Below the pieces are notes generated by a model that saw nothing but the letters and a program-made list of their open reading frames with translations, was not told the origin of the DNA and made no database searches. Source: a virus. From it: a stretch of 52,958 nucleotides of DNA. The translations under genes were made by a program, and so were the position numbers. Below are positions 22,552 to 48,505 of this stretch, one piece after another. How positions within the stretch are numbered: the first letter of the stretch is position 1; every line of letters begins with the position of its first letter. The stretch lies in UHGV virus genome UHGV-0074814; one strand, 5' to 3'.

Positions 22552-22667
22552 TCCTGGTTAAATTTCATTTTTCGCGGGTATAAAAAAACGATGGGGCGGG
22601 CAGTCCGGAAGACGTCAGGCCGCAGGGATTTGACCCGCCCCTCCCCTCAGGCAGTTGAGAATCATTA

Positions 22668-32787: not shown

Positions 32788-33126
32788 CTATTTCCCTGAA
32801 TTTACGACGAAACTGTTCGAGCGGACTGAAGCATTCATGCTCATAACCTTCGCGGAGGTAGATAACCCGTTGTGTTTCCGGCTCCCAACGAATGACTCTG
32901 ACGGGCACTCCGTAGTGATCTTTGAACCAGCGGTTAACTTGTCGCAAAGGACTGTCTCCTTCTGCCGGTTGAAATCACCCACAGCCCACTCTGCAAAGCT
33001 GTGGGTTACAATTTCCCTGTCACCTGGTACATTCACTGCATAGCAATATTCCACCTTCGCTTTTCCACCCGGTACCGGAAGCGCAATCAGTTGCGAGCGA
33101 CGGTAGTGTGTTGTTAAACTGTTCAT
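32788..33126 (-). CDS. hypothetical early protein (YmfM-like position)
   Basis: 112 aa, start overlaps stop of upstream gene. Confidence 0.35.
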
Positions 33127-33680
33127 GCGTTAGTTTCTCCACAACCAGAAGCAATCGACGCCACGACGCCCGGAGCTGCACACTCGCGGGCGTCATTACT
33201 TTCTGAAATGCAAAAAATTTTGTAGACAAGTGCTGCATGCTCCTGCAGCTTCGAAATTGAGAGATACAGCTCGTCGTTAATTGCTGTCTTCTCATGCGGT
33301 TCCACTACACCGTCTTCGATTGCTGAACGAATCTGTTTTGAATAACTGCCGATCTGTTCAATGACTTCCAGCAGACGCTGGTTAATATCGGCGTTGTCCA
33401 CATCCTCGACGTCAGGAAGAGACACAAAGACGCCATTTGCAGACTGCGCCACAGCATCAGCAATGAAGTGAGTGCCACCAGCACGCTGTAAAACCATTGC
33501 CCATCCCAGCGGGAAAATCTGATCGCCATCTGCACGAAGGCGGTTGAATAAAGCGTTTTCTGTTACATCGAGCCAGTCAGCCGCTTCAGCGTAACCACCC
33601 GGCAACGCCGCGATAGTTTTTCTGACAGCTTTCACGTACCACTCAGGCTGTTTTTCTATTTTCCAGTGATGCTTACCCAC
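33123..33680 (-). CDS. hypothetical early regulatory protein (CII/YdaT-like position)
   Basis: 185 aa immediately downstream of cro-like gene. Confidence 0.35.
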
Positions 33681-33933
33681 GGTTCACCTCCTGTTCCTGT
33701 GGTTTAAACCCATTCTGATTTTGGCTAGATTGAAAACGTGCCGGATAAAGAATCTGCATTTCGCTGACTTCACCCTTAAAAAAATTGGCTAAACGTTCTG
33801 CAAGCTCGATAGATGGAATCTGCTCCAGCCTCTCAATACGACTCAACGTCGCTGGATTGACTTGAACACCCGCAGCAACATGCTGCAAAGTGAAACCATG
33901 CGCCTTACGCACATTTCGTAATGGTGATTGCAT
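33673..33933 (-). CDS. Cro-like HTH (XRE family) repressor
   Basis: 86 aa; HTH VAAGVQVNPATLSRIERLEQIP; divergent from CI gene. Confidence 0.7.
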   Translation of the reverse strand: MQSPLRNVRKAHGFTLQHVAAGVQVNPATLSRIERLEQIPSIELAERLANFFKGEVSEMQILYPARFQSSQNQNGFKPQEQEVNRG

Positions 33934-34030
33934 ATACCCTCCAAATATTGCGCGTTATGCATGTTATTTCACGCAATTATTTTGCGCAAGTTGATTTGCT
34001 TATCACGCAATAAAGAAATGTAATAAACGC
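33934..34030. promoter_or_regulatory. OR-like divergent promoter/operator region between cro-like and cI-like genes
   Basis: Four TTGCGC/CACGCAAT motifs at 33948, 33970, 33982, 34004 including palindromic TTGCGCAA. Confidence 0.5.
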
Positions 34031-34723
34031 ATGAACATAGGAAACCGAGTCAGACAACTTCGCCAAGCGAAGAACATGAAAATCGCCGATCTCGCTGAAG
34101 CAATAGGAGTAGATGCGGCGAACATCTCGCGCTTAGAAACGGGTAAGCAAAAACAATTTACCGAACAAACACTGAGTAATATTGCCAAGAGCTTAGGTGT
34201 TGATATTGCTGATCTCTTTACCTCTGCCCTCAAAAGTAATACTGTATATAAAAACAGTAATAATGAGGATGTTGCGCAGGTGAAGGATGTGTTCCGTATT
34301 GAAATGCTGGATATCAGTGCCAGTGCGGGAAATGGCCTTATCCAGGGCGGTGATGTCATTGATGTGATTCATGCCATCGAATACAGAACTGATAATGCTG
34401 TATCAATGTTCGGCGGACGACCAGCCAATCACATCAAAGTTATCAACGTTCGTGGGGACAGTATGTGTCCAACCATTGAGCCAGGAGATCTCATCTTCGT
34501 TGATGTCAGCATCAATCAGTTTGATGGTGATGGTATATATGTCTTTGGTTTTGATGACAAAATATACGTTAAAAGACTTCAAATGATTCCTGACAAACTG
34601 CTGGTGATTTCTGATAACCAGATTTACCGTGAATGGGGAATTACTAGCGAAAACGAACACCGATTCATGGTCTTTGGAAAGGTCTTAATCAGTCAGTCGC
34701 AAACCCTTAAGAGACATAATTAA
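34031..34723 (+). CDS. CI-like repressor (HTH plus S24 LexA-like peptidase domain)
   Basis: N-terminal HTH IADLAEAIGVDAANISRLETGKQ; C-terminal VRGDSMCPTIEPGDLIFVD and K in KRLQ (Ser/Lys dyad). Confidence 0.8.
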   Translation: MNIGNRVRQLRQAKNMKIADLAEAIGVDAANISRLETGKQKQFTEQTLSNIAKSLGVDIADLFTSALKSNTVYKNSNNEDVAQVKDVFRIEMLDISASAGNGLIQGGDVIDVIHAIEYRTDNAVSMFGGRPANHIKVINVRGDSMCPTIEPGDLIFVDVSINQFDGDGIYVFGFDDKIYVKRLQMIPDKLLVISDNQIYREWGITSENEHRFMVFGKVLISQSQTLKRHN

Positions 34724-34742
34724 CCTCAATATCCCATCCATC

Positions 34743-34765
34743 GGCCACCGAAAGGTGGCTTTTTA
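34743..34765 (+). terminator. rho-independent terminator after cI-like gene
   Basis: Stem gccacc/ggtggc with gaaa loop followed by TTTTTA. Confidence 0.55.
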
Positions 34766-34777
34766 TTACCCATCATT

Positions 34778-34814
34778 TTGCATATATCGCAATATTACTT
34801 GCATATCTCGCAAT
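34778..34814. promoter_or_regulatory. OL-like operator repeats (two 16-bp direct repeats TTGCATAT(A/C)TCGCAAT, 21 bp apart)
   Basis: Repeats at 34778-34793 and 34799-34814; share CGCAAT core with OR motifs. Confidence 0.4.
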
Positions 34815-35000
34815 TTAATTTTATCTTTTGTTCCAGACCAACTACAGGATTACAACAAAATCTGGTTGCAAAACGGTGCATGTGTCGTAAGCGGTCAGTA
34901 AATGTCAAAAACGAACAGGCAGGACGCCCACGAAGTAGCAGCCTGGGGCATATGAAGTCCAGGATGATTCGTTAGCGGATGATTTCAGTGGAGAGAATAG

Positions 35001-35309
35001 ATGAATGAGCAGGATTTGAAGCATGTGATCGCATTGTTGCTGGAAGACGCTAAACGTTTGCAGCAGATAGAGCCAAATGCAGGCACTGAGGCCCGTATTT
35101 TGTTAGCAAAACAGGCATTAAAGACTTGCGAGGCGCAAGACCCTGATCGAACCAAGTTCATGAATTTCATGGCTAACACGATCACCCCACTGCCATGCAA
35201 TGGAGAGAGGGTGAGCCGTGTTTATCACGACACAATGGTTAAGGCATTAAGAATCGAGCTTGATGGGCTTAGGCGTAAGATCGTGATGAACAAAATCGTT
35301 GCCAACTAA
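35001..35309 (+). CDS. hypothetical early-left protein
   Basis: 102 aa with SD GGAGAG 8 nt upstream. Confidence 0.35.
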   Translation: MNEQDLKHVIALLLEDAKRLQQIEPNAGTEARILLAKQALKTCEAQDPDRTKFMNFMANTITPLPCNGERVSRVYHDTMVKALRIELDGLRRKIVMNKIVAN

Positions 35310-35588
35310 GGAAGCAGACGGAAGTAAGCATGCGCTTTGTTCAAATTTGCAGACAAATATATTTGCGTCAACACCAGCACTGTTAGCAATGGAAAAAGTT
35401 TGATCAAGGATTTGTTGGCAGTTCATTGTGCTTTTGAGGATATATCCCTCTGGAATCAGTCTGCAGCAGCTATCGTCAGACTCTTTGATTGTTTTCTGGT
35501 ACAGAAAGTTAAGCATTAATTCTTCAAATTTTTTGGTCTGTTCGGCTGTTGCTTCAAACAGACGAACGTGAACATAAAACTGGTTCAT
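35247..35588 (-). CDS. hypothetical protein, opposite orientation to early-left operon
   Basis: 113 aa from ATG preceded by AAGGAAA; Cys-containing; no family recognised. Confidence 0.35.
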   Translation of the reverse strand: MNQFYVHVRLFEATAEQTKKFEELMLNFLYQKTIKESDDSCCRLIPEGYILKSTMNCQQILDQTFSIANSAGVDANIFVCKFEQSACLLPSASLVGNDFVHHDLTPKPIKLDS

Positions 35589-35867
35589 TAGGTTTCCTTG
35601 CTGGCTGTGTGAGAACTCCAGCATACCACCGAGCCTGAAGTGGTGAAAAGACAGGCAATAGTTTCATTGCTGTGTGTAGTCCTGGCGGTACCAGTTTGTA
35701 CCCTTGCTTCCGGCTGGTACCGCTCTTTTTACAAAACAGAGAAGAGCATCACCGGACGACGGGCTCATAACCCAATCCATCCGGGCGGCTGCCACCGCAG
35801 GTGTTCTTCTCTGTTTTGTGGAGAAACCAACCGACCTTGCAGGGTCGATATGATGAGGAGCAGCAAA

Positions 35868-36230
35868 ATGGCTAGCGAACGCGGTACTGATGTGCAGGCA
35901 TTTATCGGGGAGCTGGACGGCGGCGTATTTGAAACCAAAATCGGCGCAGTTCTCAGTGAAGTCGCTTCCGGTGTGATGAACACGAAAACCAAAGGTAAGG
36001 TCTCGCTCAACCTGGAAATCGAACCGTTTGATGAGAACCGTGTGAAAATCAAACACAAACTCTCATATGTTCGCCCGACTAACCGCGGGAAAATTTCCGA
36101 AGAAGACACCACCGAAACGCCGATGTATGTCAATCGCGGTGGTCGCCTGACTATTCTGCAGGAAGACCAGGGACAATTACTGACTCTTGCCGGTGAACCT
36201 GACGGAAAACTCCGCGCAGCAGGTCGTTAA
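35868..36230 (+). CDS. YfdP-like hypothetical phage protein
   Basis: 120 aa from ATG with SD GAGGAG; synteny with YfdQ/YfdR-like genes as in CPS-53. Confidence 0.45.
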   Translation: MASERGTDVQAFIGELDGGVFETKIGAVLSEVASGVMNTKTKGKVSLNLEIEPFDENRVKIKHKLSYVRPTNRGKISEEDTTETPMYVNRGGRLTILQEDQGQLLTLAGEPDGKLRAAGR

Positions 36231-36295
36231 TATCGTTCTTAATTAACCGATTATTTATCTCATCACTGAATATCTTTATATAGTGAGGACTTATT

Positions 36296-37120
36296 ATGTC
36301 TCAGAACTTAGACGCAACCGCAATTAATCAAATCCATGCCCTTATTTCTGCTCAGGGTGTTAATGAAATTATCAGTAAGATTGGTGCCGATGCTGTGGCA
36401 TTGCCTGAGAATTTCCGCATTCATGATCTGGAAAAATTTAATTTAAATCGCTTCCGTTTCCGTGGTGCGCTTTCCACTGCCAGCATCGATGACTTTACCC
36501 GTTATTCTAAAGATCTTGCAGATGAAGGCACCCGCTGCTTTATCGATGCTGATAATATGCGTGCCGTCAGTGTGCTTAACCTGGGTACTATTGATGAACC
36601 AGGTCACGCAGATAACACCGCCACTCTCAAACTGAAAAAGACAGCACCGTTCTCTGCCCTGTTGTCTGTTAACGGCGAGCGTAACTCCCAGAAGTCACTG
36701 GCAGAATGGATTGAAGACTGGGCCGACTACCTTGTGGGCTTTGATGCTAATGGTGACGCTATTCAGGCAACAAAAGCGGCTGCGGCAGTCCGTAAAATCA
36801 CGATTGAAGCAAACCAGACCGCTGATTTTGAAGATAATGACTTCAGCGGCAAACGCTCCCTGATGGAGTCTGTCGAAGCGAAGACCAAAGACATTATGCC
36901 AGTGGCATTTGAATTTAAATGCGTTCCGTTTGAAGGCCTTAAAGAACGTCCGTTTAAATTACGCCTCAGCATTATCACTGGCGATCGTCCTGTACTGGTA
37001 CTACGCATTATTCAGCTGGAAGCAGTGCAGGAGGAAATGGCTAACGAATTTCGTGATCTGCTTGTTGATAAATTCAAAGACAGCAAAGTAGAAACCTTTA
37101 TTGGTACTTTCACCGCCTGA
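36296..37120 (+). CDS. YfdQ-like protein (DUF2303)
   Basis: 274 aa, length and synteny as CPS-53 yfdQ; family call from memory. Confidence 0.5.
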
Positions 37121-47651: not shown

Positions 47652-48505
47652 TGGCATTATTACTGGAGCCACTGCAGTTCACCTTTATGAGTCACGCACT
47701 GCTGATTTCACTGGTAGTTTCCATACCCTGTGCGCTGCTGTCGGTCTTTCTGGTCCTGAAAGGTTGGGCACTGATGGGTGACGCGATGAGTCATGCGGTT
47801 TTTCCTGGCATCGTGCTTGCCTGGATTCTGGGGTTACCTTTGGCTACAGGGGCATTCGTCGCCGGAGTATTCTGCGCGGTGGCGACGGGATACCTGAAAG
47901 ACAACAGCCGAATCAAGCAAGATACAGTGATGGGGATTGTTTTTTCTGGCATGTTTGCCGCAGGTCTGATCTTGTATATTGCAGTCAAACCAGACGTACA
48001 TCTTGACCATATTCTTTTCGGCGACATGCTCGGGATAACCATCGGCGATATAATCCAGACGATGATTATTGCCGGGCTGGTTACACTTGTTATTAGCGTA
48101 AAATGGCGGGATTTTTTGCTGTTCAGCTTTGATTATCAACAGGCGCAGGTAAGCGGTTTGCATACGAGATGGCTGCATTATGGGCTGCTGTGCATGGTCT
48201 CTCTGACCATTGTGGCGACGCTGAAAGCGGTAGGTATCATTCTCTCCATTTCTCTGCTCATTGCGCCTGGCGCCATTGCGGTACTCCTGACACAACGCTT
48301 TCATATTGCGCTCCTACTGGCGACTGGCATATCGGTAATAGTGTCAATGACTGGTGTCTGGTTGTCCTTTTTTATCGACAGCGCACCAGCTCCGACGATT
48401 GTCGTCTTATTCGCGGTTTTGTTCATCATGACGTTTGCCGTTACCAGCATCAACGCACGCAAAAAGGGAAACTCCCATACACAGGATCTGTTATCACCCA
48501 ATTAG
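47648..48505 (+). CDS. sitD: Mn/Fe ABC transporter permease SitD
   Basis: 285 aa polytopic membrane protein paralogous to SitC. Confidence 0.8.
   Translation: MMALLLEPLQFTFMSHALLISLVVSIPCALLSVFLVLKGWALMGDAMSHAVFPGIVLAWILGLPLATGAFVAGVFCAVATGYLKDNSRIKQDTVMGIVFSGMFAAGLILYIAVKPDVHLDHILFGDMLGITIGDIIQTMIIAGLVTLVISVKWRDFLLFSFDYQQAQVSGLHTRWLHYGLLCMVSLTIVATLKAVGIILSISLLIAPGAIAVLLTQRFHIALLLATGISVIVSMTGVWLSFFIDSAPAPTIVVLFAVLFIMTFAVTSINARKKGNSHTQDLLSPN

What the first reader, a model, noticed from the sequence alone, without database searches (positions are those of the whole stretch)
33934..34814. CI/Cro switch with CGCAAT-based operator motifs at both OR-like and OL-like positions
The divergent intergenic region (33934-34030) has four TTGCGC/CACGCAAT motifs. 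Downstream of the cI terminator, two 16-bp direct repeats TTGCATAT(A/C)TCGCAAT (34778-34793 and 34799-34814) share the CGCAAT core, suggesting a second operator cluster controlling the early-left operon that leads to xis and int.
Basis: seen in the sequence. Interest (0 to 1): 0.35.

Follow-up and report, generated by a model that had tools for sequence, protein, structure and literature searches.

The report
Prophage repressor operators flanking cI
The repeated TTGC…GCAA motifs on both sides of the prophage repressor gene are very likely the repressor's binding sites at the lytic, self-regulating and early-left promoters, so this is an ordinary lambda-style genetic switch in an e14-type prophage carrying a Shigella-phage-SfII-type immunity cassette.

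Summary
Its interpretation as OR plus OL operator clusters is well supported by comparative evidence.

- **Motif:** a 15-bp dyad, TTGCR-N5-YGCAA.
- **Specificity:** a weight matrix built only from diverged relatives puts its four best hits in the 53-kb window at 33948, 33996, 34778 and 34799 (17.5–20.1 bits; next best 10.5).
- **Conservation:** all four positions are conserved in SfII, mEp460, Stx2a phages, 1720a-02, ST64B, phiNP and a Klebsiella phage. The arms are invariant and the centres vary.
- **Cassette:** the window is an e14 backbone (Int 96%, YmfL 99% identical to K-12 e14). Its 1.2-kb cassette 33709–34906 (cro, OR, cI, terminator, OL/PL) is replaced relative to e14. e14 has an unrelated repressor and a different repeat at both places.
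- **Co-variation:** among 80 prophage loci sharing the downstream leader, 13 of 13 with this repressor type have the site pair, against 0 of 60 with other repressors.
- **Refinement:** OR holds two full dyads, not four sites. One overlaps the inferred PR −10/+1. The other overlaps the inferred PRM −35.
- **Prior work:** a 2025 preprint already modelled Cro on the two OR sites. The OL pair is not annotated.

This is an ordinary lambdoid switch, so interest is low. A side find may be more interesting: a strongly covarying 72-nt leader RNA (34906–34977) just downstream of PL.

The parts
33673..33933 (-). cro-like gene (86 aa, HTH_3). Recognition helix PATLSRIERLE with Arg32.
   Evidence: ORF list. 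Pfam HTH_3, E 5e-10. 80/86 aa identical to Cro of phage 1720a-02 over the ungapped comparison, with an identical HTH. That Cro was modelled on these operators in bioRxiv 10.1101/2025.01.01.630987.
33898..33912 (.). Possible weak auxiliary dyad inside the 5' end of cro (ATGCGCCTTACGCAC).
   Evidence: Fifth-best matrix hit in the window, 10.5 bits. The same offset (-133/-134 from the cI ATG) holds a strong dyad, TTGCGATTTTCGCAA (18-19 bits), in phiNP-like loci although the Cro residues differ. Its function is uncertain.
33948..33962 (.). Operator 'O-R lytic' (TTGCGCGTTATGCAT). It overlaps the last 2 nt of the inferred PR -10 hexamer and the inferred transcription start of cro.
   Evidence: 17.5 bits. 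The position (-83 from the cI ATG) is conserved in all relatives, with invariant TTGCG...GCAT arms. It corresponds to the site 12 bp upstream of cro that the preprint models for Cro in phiNP.
33961..33989 (-). Inferred PR promoter for cro. -35 TTGCGC (33989..33984), 17-nt spacer, -10 TAACAT (33966..33961).
   Evidence: Both hexamers and the spacing are conserved in 11 genomes. Consensus match is weak (3/6 and 4/6), and the tool's default scan does not call it. The phiNP 98-bp control region drives a lytic lux reporter in the preprint. This is an inference.
33996..34010 (.). Operator 'O-R lysogenic' (TTGCTTATCACGCAA). Its left arm is the inferred PRM -35 hexamer.
   Evidence: Perfect dyad and the best hit in the window, 20.1 bits. 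The position (-35 from the cI ATG) is conserved in all relatives. It equals the 20-bp site 20-39 bp upstream of cI that the preprint models for Cro of 1720a-02.
33996..34024 (+). Inferred PRM promoter for cI. -35 TTGCTT (33996-34001), 17-nt spacer, -10 TGTAAT (34019-34024). It ends 6 nt before the ATG, with no Shine-Dalgarno, so the cI mRNA would be leaderless.
   Evidence: TGTAAT is invariant and lies 6-7 nt from the ATG in 11 genomes. This is an inference by analogy with lambda PRM.
34031..34723 (+). cI repressor (230 aa). N-terminal HTH with recognition helix AANISRLE, C-terminal S24 LexA-type self-cleaving domain.
   Evidence: Pfam HTH_3/HTH_26 plus Peptidase_S24, E 6e-19. 99.6% identical to SfII CI. 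The N-terminal domain is nearly invariant across the family. It is unrelated to e14 YmfK outside a 39-aa S24 stretch.
34743..34765 (+). Intrinsic terminator of the cI transcript (GGCCACCGAAAGGTGGC followed by a T-run).
   Evidence: Terminator scan. It is annotated as a terminator in the SfII record and conserved with compensatory stem changes in relatives.
34778..34792 (.). Operator O-L distal (TTGCATATATCGCAA).
   Evidence: Perfect dyad, 19.1 bits. Conserved in all relatives. Present only with an SfII-type repressor.
34799..34813 (.). Operator O-L proximal (TTGCATATCTCGCAA). It covers the -35 and spacer of the inferred PL.
   Evidence: Perfect dyad, 18.9 bits. Conserved. Spacing to the distal site is 21-24 bp in relatives, and 33 bp in one.
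34799..34827 (+). Inferred PL promoter. -35 TTGCAT (34799-34804), 17-nt spacer, -10 TATCTT (34822-34827).
   Evidence: TATCTT at this spacing is found in 8 of 10 genomes compared. e14 has a near-consensus TTGACA-16-CATAAT (11/12) at the equivalent place between the ymfK terminator and the shared leader. This is an inference.
33709..34906 (.). Immunity cassette: the stretch with no homology to K-12 e14, flanked by 99% and 95% identical DNA.
   Evidence: blastn of the window against e14. Flanking proteins YmfL, YmfJ and Int are 99%, 91% and 96% identical.
34906..34977 (+). Conserved structured leader RNA of the early-left transcript. It is not part of the operators but is the first element downstream of PL.
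   Evidence: Covariance model score of 92.6 bits on the window's own element. Among 31 variants, 10 of 16 pairs have compensatory changes and 96.6% of cells are paired. Covariation score is 0.40 against 0.10 shuffled.

Best explanation
This is the genetic switch of an e14-type prophage that carries an SfII/ST64B/1720a-02-type immunity cassette (33709-34906). Dimers of the cI repressor and of Cro share an S-R-(L/I)-E recognition helix. They recognise a 15-bp dyad, TTGCR-N5-YGCAA, whose outer 4-5 bp arms are contacted and whose centre is free to vary.

There are four strong operators.
- 33948-33962 lies over the -10/+1 of PR. Occupancy blocks cro and lytic transcription.
- 33996-34010 lies over the -35 of PRM, which makes a leaderless cI mRNA. 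Occupancy by Cro after induction, or by excess cI, shuts cI synthesis off.
- A pair 21 bp apart (34778-34792 and 34799-34813) lies just past the cI terminator. The proximal site covers the -35 and spacer of PL. cI bound there, probably cooperatively, silences the early-left operon (leader RNA, ymfJ-like genes, xis, int) in the lysogen.

SOS-triggered self-cleavage of cI through its S24 domain frees all three promoters.

Shown here: the sites exist, they are specific, they are positionally conserved, and they co-vary with repressor type. Inferred: the promoter placements, which protein occupies which site first, and cooperativity.
For: - **Gene content:** a divergent cro and cI (HTH + S24) pair.
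- **Rarity:** only three perfect dyads in 53 kb, all flanking cI.
- **Specificity:** a matrix built from relatives only ranks the four sites 1-4 in the window, with a 7-bit gap to the fifth. The chance of such a cluster is about 7e-13.
- **Conservation:** invariant arms and variable centres at fixed offsets (-83, -35, about +747, about +770 from the cI ATG) in SfII, mEp460, Stx2a_1447, 1720a-02, ST64B, phiNP, Klebsiella P7641 and 13 IMG/VR loci.
- **Natural swap:** K-12 e14 shares the flanks but has an unrelated repressor and Cro. It has TGTAC-type repeats at both OR and OL and no TTGC-N7-GCAA.
- **Co-variation:** among 80 loci sharing the leader, 13/13 with SfII-type cI have two sites and 0/60 with other types have any.
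- **Promoters:** the hexamers are conserved, and e14 has an 11/12 promoter at the PL-equivalent position.
- **Independent work:** the preprint models Cro (HTH identical to the window's) on the two OR sites, with Arg32 contacting a G in each arm. It also shows that Cro represses the phiNP lytic reporter.
Against: - No binding data exist for cI at any site or for any protein at the OL pair.
- All three inferred promoters match the -35 consensus at only 3 of 6 positions, and the promoter scan at default thresholds calls none.
- The highest-scoring OR operator sits on the -35 of the cI promoter. That implies negative rather than lambda-like positive autoregulation, and this is unverified.
- No convincing third OR site is present in this window. 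Candidates at 33962 and 33982 score about 0 bits, so lambda's OR1-OR2 cooperativity logic cannot simply be transferred.
- OL spacing varies from 21 to 24 bp among relatives, which is not strictly phased.
Confidence: 0.87

Rival explanations
1. The post-terminator repeats are operators, but their main role is long-range. OL-bound and OR-bound cI would form a roughly 800-bp DNA loop that tunes PR/PRM, as in lambda's OL-OR octamer, rather than repressing a local PL promoter.
For: The same dyad occurs at both clusters about 800 bp apart. The strongest OR site is on PRM -35, which in lambda is the site whose occupancy depends on looping. The inferred PL is weak by consensus.
Against: The proximal OL site coincides with a conserved -35/-10 pair in most relatives. 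e14 has an 11/12 promoter overlapped by its own repeats at the same place. The two roles are not exclusive. Nothing here tests oligomerisation of the C-terminal domain.
Confidence: 0.08
2. OR contains three or four functional operators. The half-sites at 33970-33977 and 33982-33989 would be used through cooperative binding next to the strong sites, as a lambda-like OR2.
For: In phiNP and Klebsiella P7641 the position 21 bp upstream of the PRM-side operator holds a one-mismatch dyad (TTAC...GCAA, TAGC...GCAA). That spacing equals the OL pair spacing. The block TTGCGCAAGTTG is invariant in the seven genomes aligned in A1.
Against: In the window these positions score about 0 bits. The invariant block is also explained as the PR -35 hexamer. 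The region between the two strong sites is the least conserved part of OR.
Confidence: 0.15
3. The repeats downstream of cI are not protein-binding sites. They would be chance repeats, or promoter or terminator-associated sequence, conserved only because the relatives are closely related.
For: The hexamer CGCAAT is not enriched in the window. TTGC resembles the start of a -35 hexamer. There are no binding data.
Against: The arms are invariant while the centres and flanks diverge, down to about 70% DNA identity. The upstream site of the pair and all GCAA arms have no promoter role. The association with repressor type is perfect across 73 loci that share the same downstream leader. The motif changes at OR and OL together in e14.
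Confidence: 0.03

Closest known systems
Bacteriophage lambda immunity region (OR1-3 / OL1-3, PR, PRM, PL, cI, cro)
   Same: - Divergent cI and cro genes with back-to-back promoters about 78 bp apart.
- A leaderless cI message from PRM (inferred).
- A self-cleaving S24 repressor.
- A second operator cluster at the early-left promoter, downstream of cI on the same strand.
- Paired operators about two helical turns apart.
- The whole cassette is exchangeable between otherwise homologous phages (imm swaps).
   Different: - The operator is a 15-bp TTGCR-N5-YGCAA dyad rather than lambda's 17-bp sites.
- Only two strong OR sites 48 bp apart and two OL sites, instead of three plus three.
- No evident OR2-type activating site.
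- cI is followed directly by a terminator, with no rex genes.
- OL-OR distance is about 0.8 kb rather than 2.3 kb (lambda values from general knowledge).
- No N gene was found by others in SfII-type phages (PMC3851460).
Cro operator predictions for phages 1720a-02 and phiNP (bioRxiv 10.1101/2025.01.01.630987)
   Same: It is the same immunity family. The window's Cro is 80/86 aa identical to Cro-1720a-02 over the ungapped comparison, with an identical HTH. Their two modelled 20-bp sites correspond to 33996-34010 and 33948-33962 here. Arg32 contacts a guanine in each arm.
   Different: They modelled Cro only and considered only the 98-bp cro-cI region. They did not derive a consensus and did not describe the two sites downstream of the cI terminator. 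The sites rest on AlphaFold3 models plus reporter assays, not footprints.
E. coli K-12 cryptic prophage e14 (ymfK / ymfT-croE)
   Same: Same backbone and gene order. Int is 96%, YmfJ 91% and YmfL 99% identical. It has the same leader RNA and a promoter immediately after the repressor's terminator.
   Different: The repressor and Cro are unrelated. The repeats are TGTAC-type at both OR and OL, and there is no TTGC-N7-GCAA. So e14 is a different immunity type, not the same switch.
Phage 434 operators (ACAA-N6-TTGT; from general knowledge)
   Same: Short 4-bp outer arms are contacted by an HTH dimer, and the central bases are variable and not contacted. The N-terminal domain of cI gives a weak match to a designed 434-repressor domain in the PDB (1sq8, E 4e-4).
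   Different: The arm sequence and the spacing differ (N7 against N6). There is no close sequence relationship.
Phage HK022 left arm (cI - terminator - OL/PL - putL)
   Same: cI is 42% identical over 91% of the query. The order is the same: terminator, operator repeats, then a structured RNA at the 5' end of the PL transcript.
   Different: The operator sequences differ. The window's leader RNA is not recognised as put by a covariance model, in HK022 or in HK639.

Membership tests
Lambdoid CI/Cro immunity switch with OR and OL operators | Divergently transcribed repressor (HTH + LexA-type S24 self-cleavage domain) and small HTH Cro, separated by about 100 bp | tested here: met
   ORFs 34031-34723 (+) and 33673-33933 (-), 97-bp gap. 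Pfam HTH_3 + Peptidase_S24 and HTH_3. An Ala-Gly (..SASAGNG..), the GDSM serine and the VKRL lysine are visible in the translation.
Lambdoid CI/Cro immunity switch with OR and OL operators | Repeated dyad-symmetric operators in the intergenic region overlapping the divergent promoters | tested here: met
   Two full dyads at 33948 and 33996 overlap the conserved PR -10/+1 and PRM -35. The promoter positions are inferred.
Lambdoid CI/Cro immunity switch with OR and OL operators | A second cluster of the same operator sequence at the early-left promoter | tested here: met
   Two perfect dyads at 34778 and 34799, after the cI terminator, overlapping a conserved -35/-10 pair.
Lambdoid CI/Cro immunity switch with OR and OL operators | Operators co-vary with repressor specificity and travel with it as an exchangeable immunity cassette | tested here: met
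   e14 control. 13/13 against 0/60 loci. Cassette boundaries at 33709 and 34906.
Lambdoid CI/Cro immunity switch with OR and OL operators | Tripartite OR with an OR2 site from which cI activates PRM (lambda/434/P22 logic) | tested here: not met
   There is no third site above about 0 bits between the two strong sites in the window. One-mismatch candidates exist only in phiNP and P7641. Positive autoregulation cannot be assessed.
Lambdoid CI/Cro immunity switch with OR and OL operators | Sequence-specific binding of cI and Cro to the sites, and repression of PR, PL and PRM | not testable with these tools
   Only indirect evidence is available: AlphaFold3 models and lux reporters for Cro in the preprint.
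HK022-type put antiterminator RNA (considered for the leader at 34906-34977) | An RNA of about 70 nt with conserved stems at the 5' end of the PL transcript | tested here: met
   A 72-nt element with three helices and strong covariation. It starts within about 10 nt of the inferred +1 in phiNP-like phages and about 75 nt downstream in the window.
HK022-type put antiterminator RNA (considered for the leader at 34906-34977) | Sequence and structure similarity to putL/putR of HK022 or putL of HK639 | tested here: not met
   Covariance model R1 gives no hit on the put regions of HK022 (L009) or on the annotated HK639 putL (L130 5164-5289) at E up to 10. The model is narrow (effective sequence number 2.05), so distant homology is not excluded.
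HK022-type put antiterminator RNA (considered for the leader at 34906-34977) | A second copy downstream of PR (putR) | tested here: not met
   There is no second match in the window. The best other hit scores 12.9 bits, E 0.24, at 22591 and is unrelated.
HK022-type put antiterminator RNA (considered for the leader at 34906-34977) | Factor-independent read-through of downstream terminators, blocked by rpoC zinc-binding-domain mutations | not testable with these tools
   The scan finds no strong plus-strand intrinsic terminator between PL and int. Rho-dependent sites cannot be assessed.

The most novel reading that the evidence does not exclude
The switch may not follow lambda logic. It would have only two full OR operators 48 bp apart, plus a possible third inside cro. 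The best one sits on the -35 of the repressor's own promoter, so cI would be purely self-repressing and the PL-side pair would supply the cooperativity. In addition, the early-left transcript begins with a previously undescribed, strongly covarying 72-nt RNA (34906-34977). This RNA is shared by e14, SfII, ST64B, phiNP and more than 120 viral contigs across at least three immunity types. It could be a new class of cis-acting, put-like processive antiterminator for N-less lambdoid phages.
Probability: 0.2. Interest if true: 0.55.

Novelty: new member of a known kind. Interest (0 to 1): 0.25.

Why it matters
This immunity type is very common. Megablast matches to the 1.4-kb query spanning this switch (33600-35000) are found in 2,634 of 5,426 complete E. 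coli genomes. It also occurs in Shigella serotype-converting phage SfII, several Stx2-converting phages, Salmonella ST64B and Citrobacter phiNP.

Knowing the operator consensus (TTGCR-N5-YGCAA) and all four sites has three uses:
- immunity groups and cross-repression between co-resident prophages can be predicted from sequence, a phenomenon just reported for the 1720a-02 Cro acting on phiNP;
- it gives exact targets for footprinting and reporter work;
- it marks the boundaries of the exchangeable cassette.

Conceptually it is a textbook arrangement and changes no principle.

Tried and rejected
- **CGCAAT hexamer as the unit:** not enriched (37 found, 47.5 expected). The unit is the 15-bp dyad.
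- **CGCAAT cluster at 48260-48310:** coding sequence with no dyad, unrelated.
- **Third or fourth OR operator:** candidates at 33962 and 33982 score about 0 bits.
- **Default sigma-70 scan:** calls no promoter in 33600-35100. Promoter placement therefore rests on conservation and position.
- **Rfam 15 on 33000-36500:** nothing at E up to 1.
- **put-RNA membership of the leader:** a covariance model built from 31 variants does not hit HK022 or HK639 put sites.
- **Intrinsic terminators between PL and int:** none convincing on the plus strand, so there is no direct case for antitermination.
- **PDB sequence search:** no close solved relative of cI or Cro; best E is about 1e-4.
- **Literature:** the SfIV/SfII comparison paper says only that a switch exists. 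The LLS paper says the operator specificity of a different repressor (phage LLS, closest relative mEp460_4F5) is unknown, and only speculates about put-like RNA. Mmolawa 2003 (ST64B) and King 2011 (new put RNAs) are not held, so an earlier description of these operators or of the leader RNA there cannot be excluded.
Full report
**1. What is at the coordinates**

The region holds a divergent gene pair. An 86-aa HTH protein is encoded on the minus strand (33673-33933). A 230-aa protein with an N-terminal Cro/C1 HTH and a C-terminal S24 (LexA-type) peptidase domain is encoded on the plus strand (34031-34723). They are 97 bp apart.

Beyond cro lies a phage-186-CII/YmfL-type gene. Beyond cI lie a strong intrinsic terminator (34743-34760 plus T-run), ymfJ-like and DUF2303 genes, an excisionase and a lambda-type integrase, all on the plus strand.

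- TTGCGC at 33948 and 33982;
- CACGCAAT at 33970 and 34004;
- TTGCATATATCGCAAT at 34778-34793 and TTGCATATCTCGCAAT at 34799-34814.

**2. What the repeat unit is**

The repeat finder showed two relationships:
- the post-terminator 16-mers match, in reverse complement, a site in the divergent region (33944-33967);
- they match another site there directly (33985-34011).

The common denominator is a 15-bp dyad, TTGC-N7-GCAA, or more fully TTGCR-N5-YGCAA.

The hexamer CGCAAT alone is not enriched (37 found, 47.5 expected). The perfect dyad occurs only three times in 52,958 bp, at 33996, 34778 and 34799. A one-mismatch copy (GCAT arm) lies at 33948.

**3. Identity of the element and relatives**

The 1.4-kb switch is 98.8% identical to Shigella phage SfII. 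That record annotates cI, cro, cII and the terminator but no operators. Other relatives:
- about 90% identical: mEp460, Stx2a_1447/WGPS2 and 1720a-02;
- about 75%: Salmonella ST64B;
- about 70%: Citrobacter phiNP and Klebsiella phages.

Matches are present in 2,634 of 5,426 complete E. coli genomes.

**4. Phylogenetic footprint**

In all these genomes the dyad is found at the same four places. In 13 further IMG/VR loci the offsets from the cI start codon are -83, -35, about +747 and about +770. The alignments show invariant arms (TTGCG...GCAT, TTGC...CGCAA) with freely varying centres, plus invariant hexamers discussed below.

I built a symmetrised weight matrix from the 19 distinct sites of the diverged relatives only, excluding the window and SfII. 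Its four best hits over the whole window are 33996 (20.1 bits), 34778 (19.1), 34799 (18.9) and 33948 (17.5). The fifth scores 10.5. First-order Markov simulations give 0.125 hits of at least 17.5 bits per 53 kb, so four within 870 bp has a probability of about 7e-13.

**5. Co-variation with the repressor: the decisive evidence**

The window is an e14 backbone. Int, YmfJ and YmfL are 96%, 91% and 99% identical to those of E. coli K-12 e14. DNA homology runs up to 33708 (99%) and resumes at 34907 (95%).

The 1.2 kb in between carries cro, the intergenic region, cI, the terminator and the two downstream dyads. It has no counterpart in e14:
- e14's repressor YmfK shares only a 39-residue S24 stretch with the window's cI;
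- e14's Cro (YmfT) gives no alignment at all.

e14 has no TTGC-N7-GCAA at either place. Instead it has TGTAC-type repeats both between ymfK and ymfT and just after the ymfK terminator. So the motif changes at OR and OL together when the repressor changes.

I generalised this with 80 viral or prophage loci retrieved through the conserved leader that follows the OL position:
- all 13 loci with an SfII-type cI N-terminal domain (at least 60% identity) have exactly two matrix hits of at least 14 bits in the 260 bp upstream of the leader;
- none of the 14 e14-type loci has any;
- none of the 46 other-type loci has any.

Fisher's exact test gives p = 1.2e-14. This is what is expected of an OL cluster belonging to the immunity cassette. 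It is hard to reconcile with a chance repeat or a generic promoter element.

**6. Promoters (inferred)**

The default sigma-70 scan calls nothing in this region, because all three candidate -35 hexamers begin TTGC and match the consensus at only 3 of 6 positions. Conservation and geometry nevertheless point to three promoters.

- **PR, minus strand.** TTGCGC (33989..33984), 17 nt, TAACAT (33966..33961). It is invariant as TTGCGC-17-TAA(C/T)AT in 11 genomes. The start would be near 33954, about 20 nt upstream of the cro ATG and its GGAGGG ribosome-binding site. Operator 33948-33962 then spans the end of the -10 and the start site. Its GCAT arm is explained because the AT belongs to the -10 hexamer.
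- **PRM, plus strand.** TTGCTT (33996-34001), 17 nt, TGTAAT (34019-34024). TGTAAT is invariant and lies 6-7 nt from the ATG, with no Shine-Dalgarno. That implies a leaderless cI mRNA, as for lambda PRM (general knowledge). Operator 33996-34010 covers the -35 and half the spacer.
- **PL, plus strand.** TTGCAT (34799-34804), 17 nt, TATCTT (34822-34827). It is conserved in 8 of 10 genomes. e14 carries a near-consensus TTGACA-16-CATAAT (11/12) at the equivalent place, between its terminator and the shared leader. The proximal OL dyad covers the -35 and spacer. The distal dyad lies 21 bp upstream, 21-24 bp in relatives and 33 bp in one. Those distances are roughly two or three helical turns, compatible with pairwise cooperativity.

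**7. Independent literature support**

A 2025 preprint (bioRxiv 10.1101/2025.01.01.630987) studies phage 1720a-02 and phiNP, both members of this family. The window's Cro is 80/86 aa identical to Cro-1720a-02 over the ungapped comparison, with an identical HTH.

- Their AlphaFold3 models place a Cro dimer on a 20-bp semi-palindrome 20-39 bp upstream of cI in 1720a-02. That is my 33996-34010 site.
- In phiNP they place it 12 bp upstream of cro. That is my 33948-33962 site.
- In both models Arg32 contacts one guanine on each strand.
- Lux reporters show that this Cro represses the phiNP lytic promoter.

cI carries the same S-R-(L/I)-E motif in its recognition helix (Arg34). Both proteins plausibly read the same arms.

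The preprint does not treat the sites downstream of cI. The SfII record does not annotate any operators.

**8. How it most likely works**

In the lysogen, cI dimers occupy 33948-33962 (blocking PR) and the 34778/34799 pair (blocking PL). This silences the lytic operon and the early-left operon that ends in xis and int. Occupancy of 33996-34010 represses PRM, either by excess cI or by Cro after induction. RecA-stimulated self-cleavage of the S24 domain releases all promoters.

The existence, specificity, conservation and co-variation of the sites are shown. The promoter assignments, order of occupancy and cooperativity are inferred.

There are two departures from lambda. I find only two full OR operators in this window. 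The best one lies on the repressor's own -35, which suggests negative rather than positive autoregulation. A weak fifth dyad lies inside the 5' end of cro (33898-33912, 10.5 bits). It is strong at the same offset in phiNP-like phages.

**9. Side finding: a structured leader RNA**

Homology with e14 resumes exactly at a 72-nt element (34906-34977) that follows the OL/PL position in more than 120 viral contigs of at least three immunity types. Among 31 distinct variants:
- 96.6% of cells are paired;
- 10 of 16 pairs show compensatory changes, and one pair shows all four Watson-Crick types;
- the covariation score is 0.40, against 0.10 in shuffles (0 of 500 reach the observed value) and at most 0.074 in slid controls.

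It is not in Rfam 15. HK022 has putL in the same relative place, and N-less phages of this group have been speculated to use put-like RNA (PMC12315714). However, a covariance model of the element does not recognise HK022 putL/putR or the annotated HK639 putL, and the window has no second copy. No strong intrinsic terminators lie between PL and int. Its function is unknown, and a cis-acting role in elongation or antitermination is only a hypothesis.

**10. Verdict**

This is a canonical lambdoid immunity cassette of a widespread but little-characterised specificity. It is useful for annotation and for predicting prophage cross-immunity, and it is not surprising to a specialist.

Noticed in passing
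window 34906-34977 (+): A 72-nt structured RNA at the start of the early-left transcript, made of an outer stem, an invariant GGC-AGGAC-GCC hairpin and a variable hairpin. 10 of 16 pairs have compensatory changes among 31 variants. It is present in more than 120 viral contigs across at least three immunity types (e14, SfII, ST64B, phiNP). It is absent from Rfam 15 and is not matched to HK022 or HK639 put RNAs by a covariance model. Function unknown; a put-like antiterminator role is a hypothesis.
   Followed up: partly
window 33709-34906: Exact boundaries of an exchanged immunity cassette. DNA is 99% identical to K-12 e14 up to 33708 and 95% identical from 34907. The 1.2 kb between has no e14 homology and is SfII-type.
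   Followed up: yes
window 33898-33912 (inside cro, codons 8-12): A weak dyad, ATGCGCCTTACGCAC (10.5 bits), 50 bp from the PR-side operator. At the same offset phiNP-like phages carry a perfect TTGCGATTTTCGCAA although the encoded Cro residues differ. That hints at selection on the DNA for a third, downstream operator.
   Followed up: partly
window 34019-34033: cI appears to be translated from a leaderless mRNA. An invariant TGTAAT lies 6-7 nt before the ATG and there is no Shine-Dalgarno sequence, in all 11 genomes compared.
   Followed up: partly
window 34828-34905; compare L003 3583-3607 and L005 3435-3453: The window, SfII, mEp460 and the Stx2a phages have an extra stretch of about 75 nt between the inferred PL and the position of the leader RNA. 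ST64B, phiNP and e14 lack it. mEp460, Stx2a_1447, 1720a-02 and Klebsiella P7641 lack the leader RNA altogether.
   Followed up: no
L007 6086-6259 (e14) and L009 (HK022, downstream of cI): e14's own repeats after the ymfK terminator (AATGTACCTTTGAGATACATAATGTACCC) resemble the TGTAC-containing repeats downstream of the HK022 cI terminator (AATGTACTATTGGTACTTTACAT...AAGTACAT). The operator types may be related although the window's type is different.
   Followed up: no
window 35247-35624 (-) versus 35001-35309 (+): A ymfI-like ORF on the opposite strand converges on, and overlaps by 63 nt, the 3' end of the ymfJ-like first gene of the early-left operon. The arrangement is the same as in e14. This is a possible site of transcriptional interference.
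   Followed up: no
L035 (IMG/VR 2876652380_000001), +796 and +829 from the cI start: One family member has its two OL dyads 33 bp apart instead of 21-24 bp, roughly one extra helical turn. That is consistent with face-of-helix constraints on cooperative binding.
   Followed up: no
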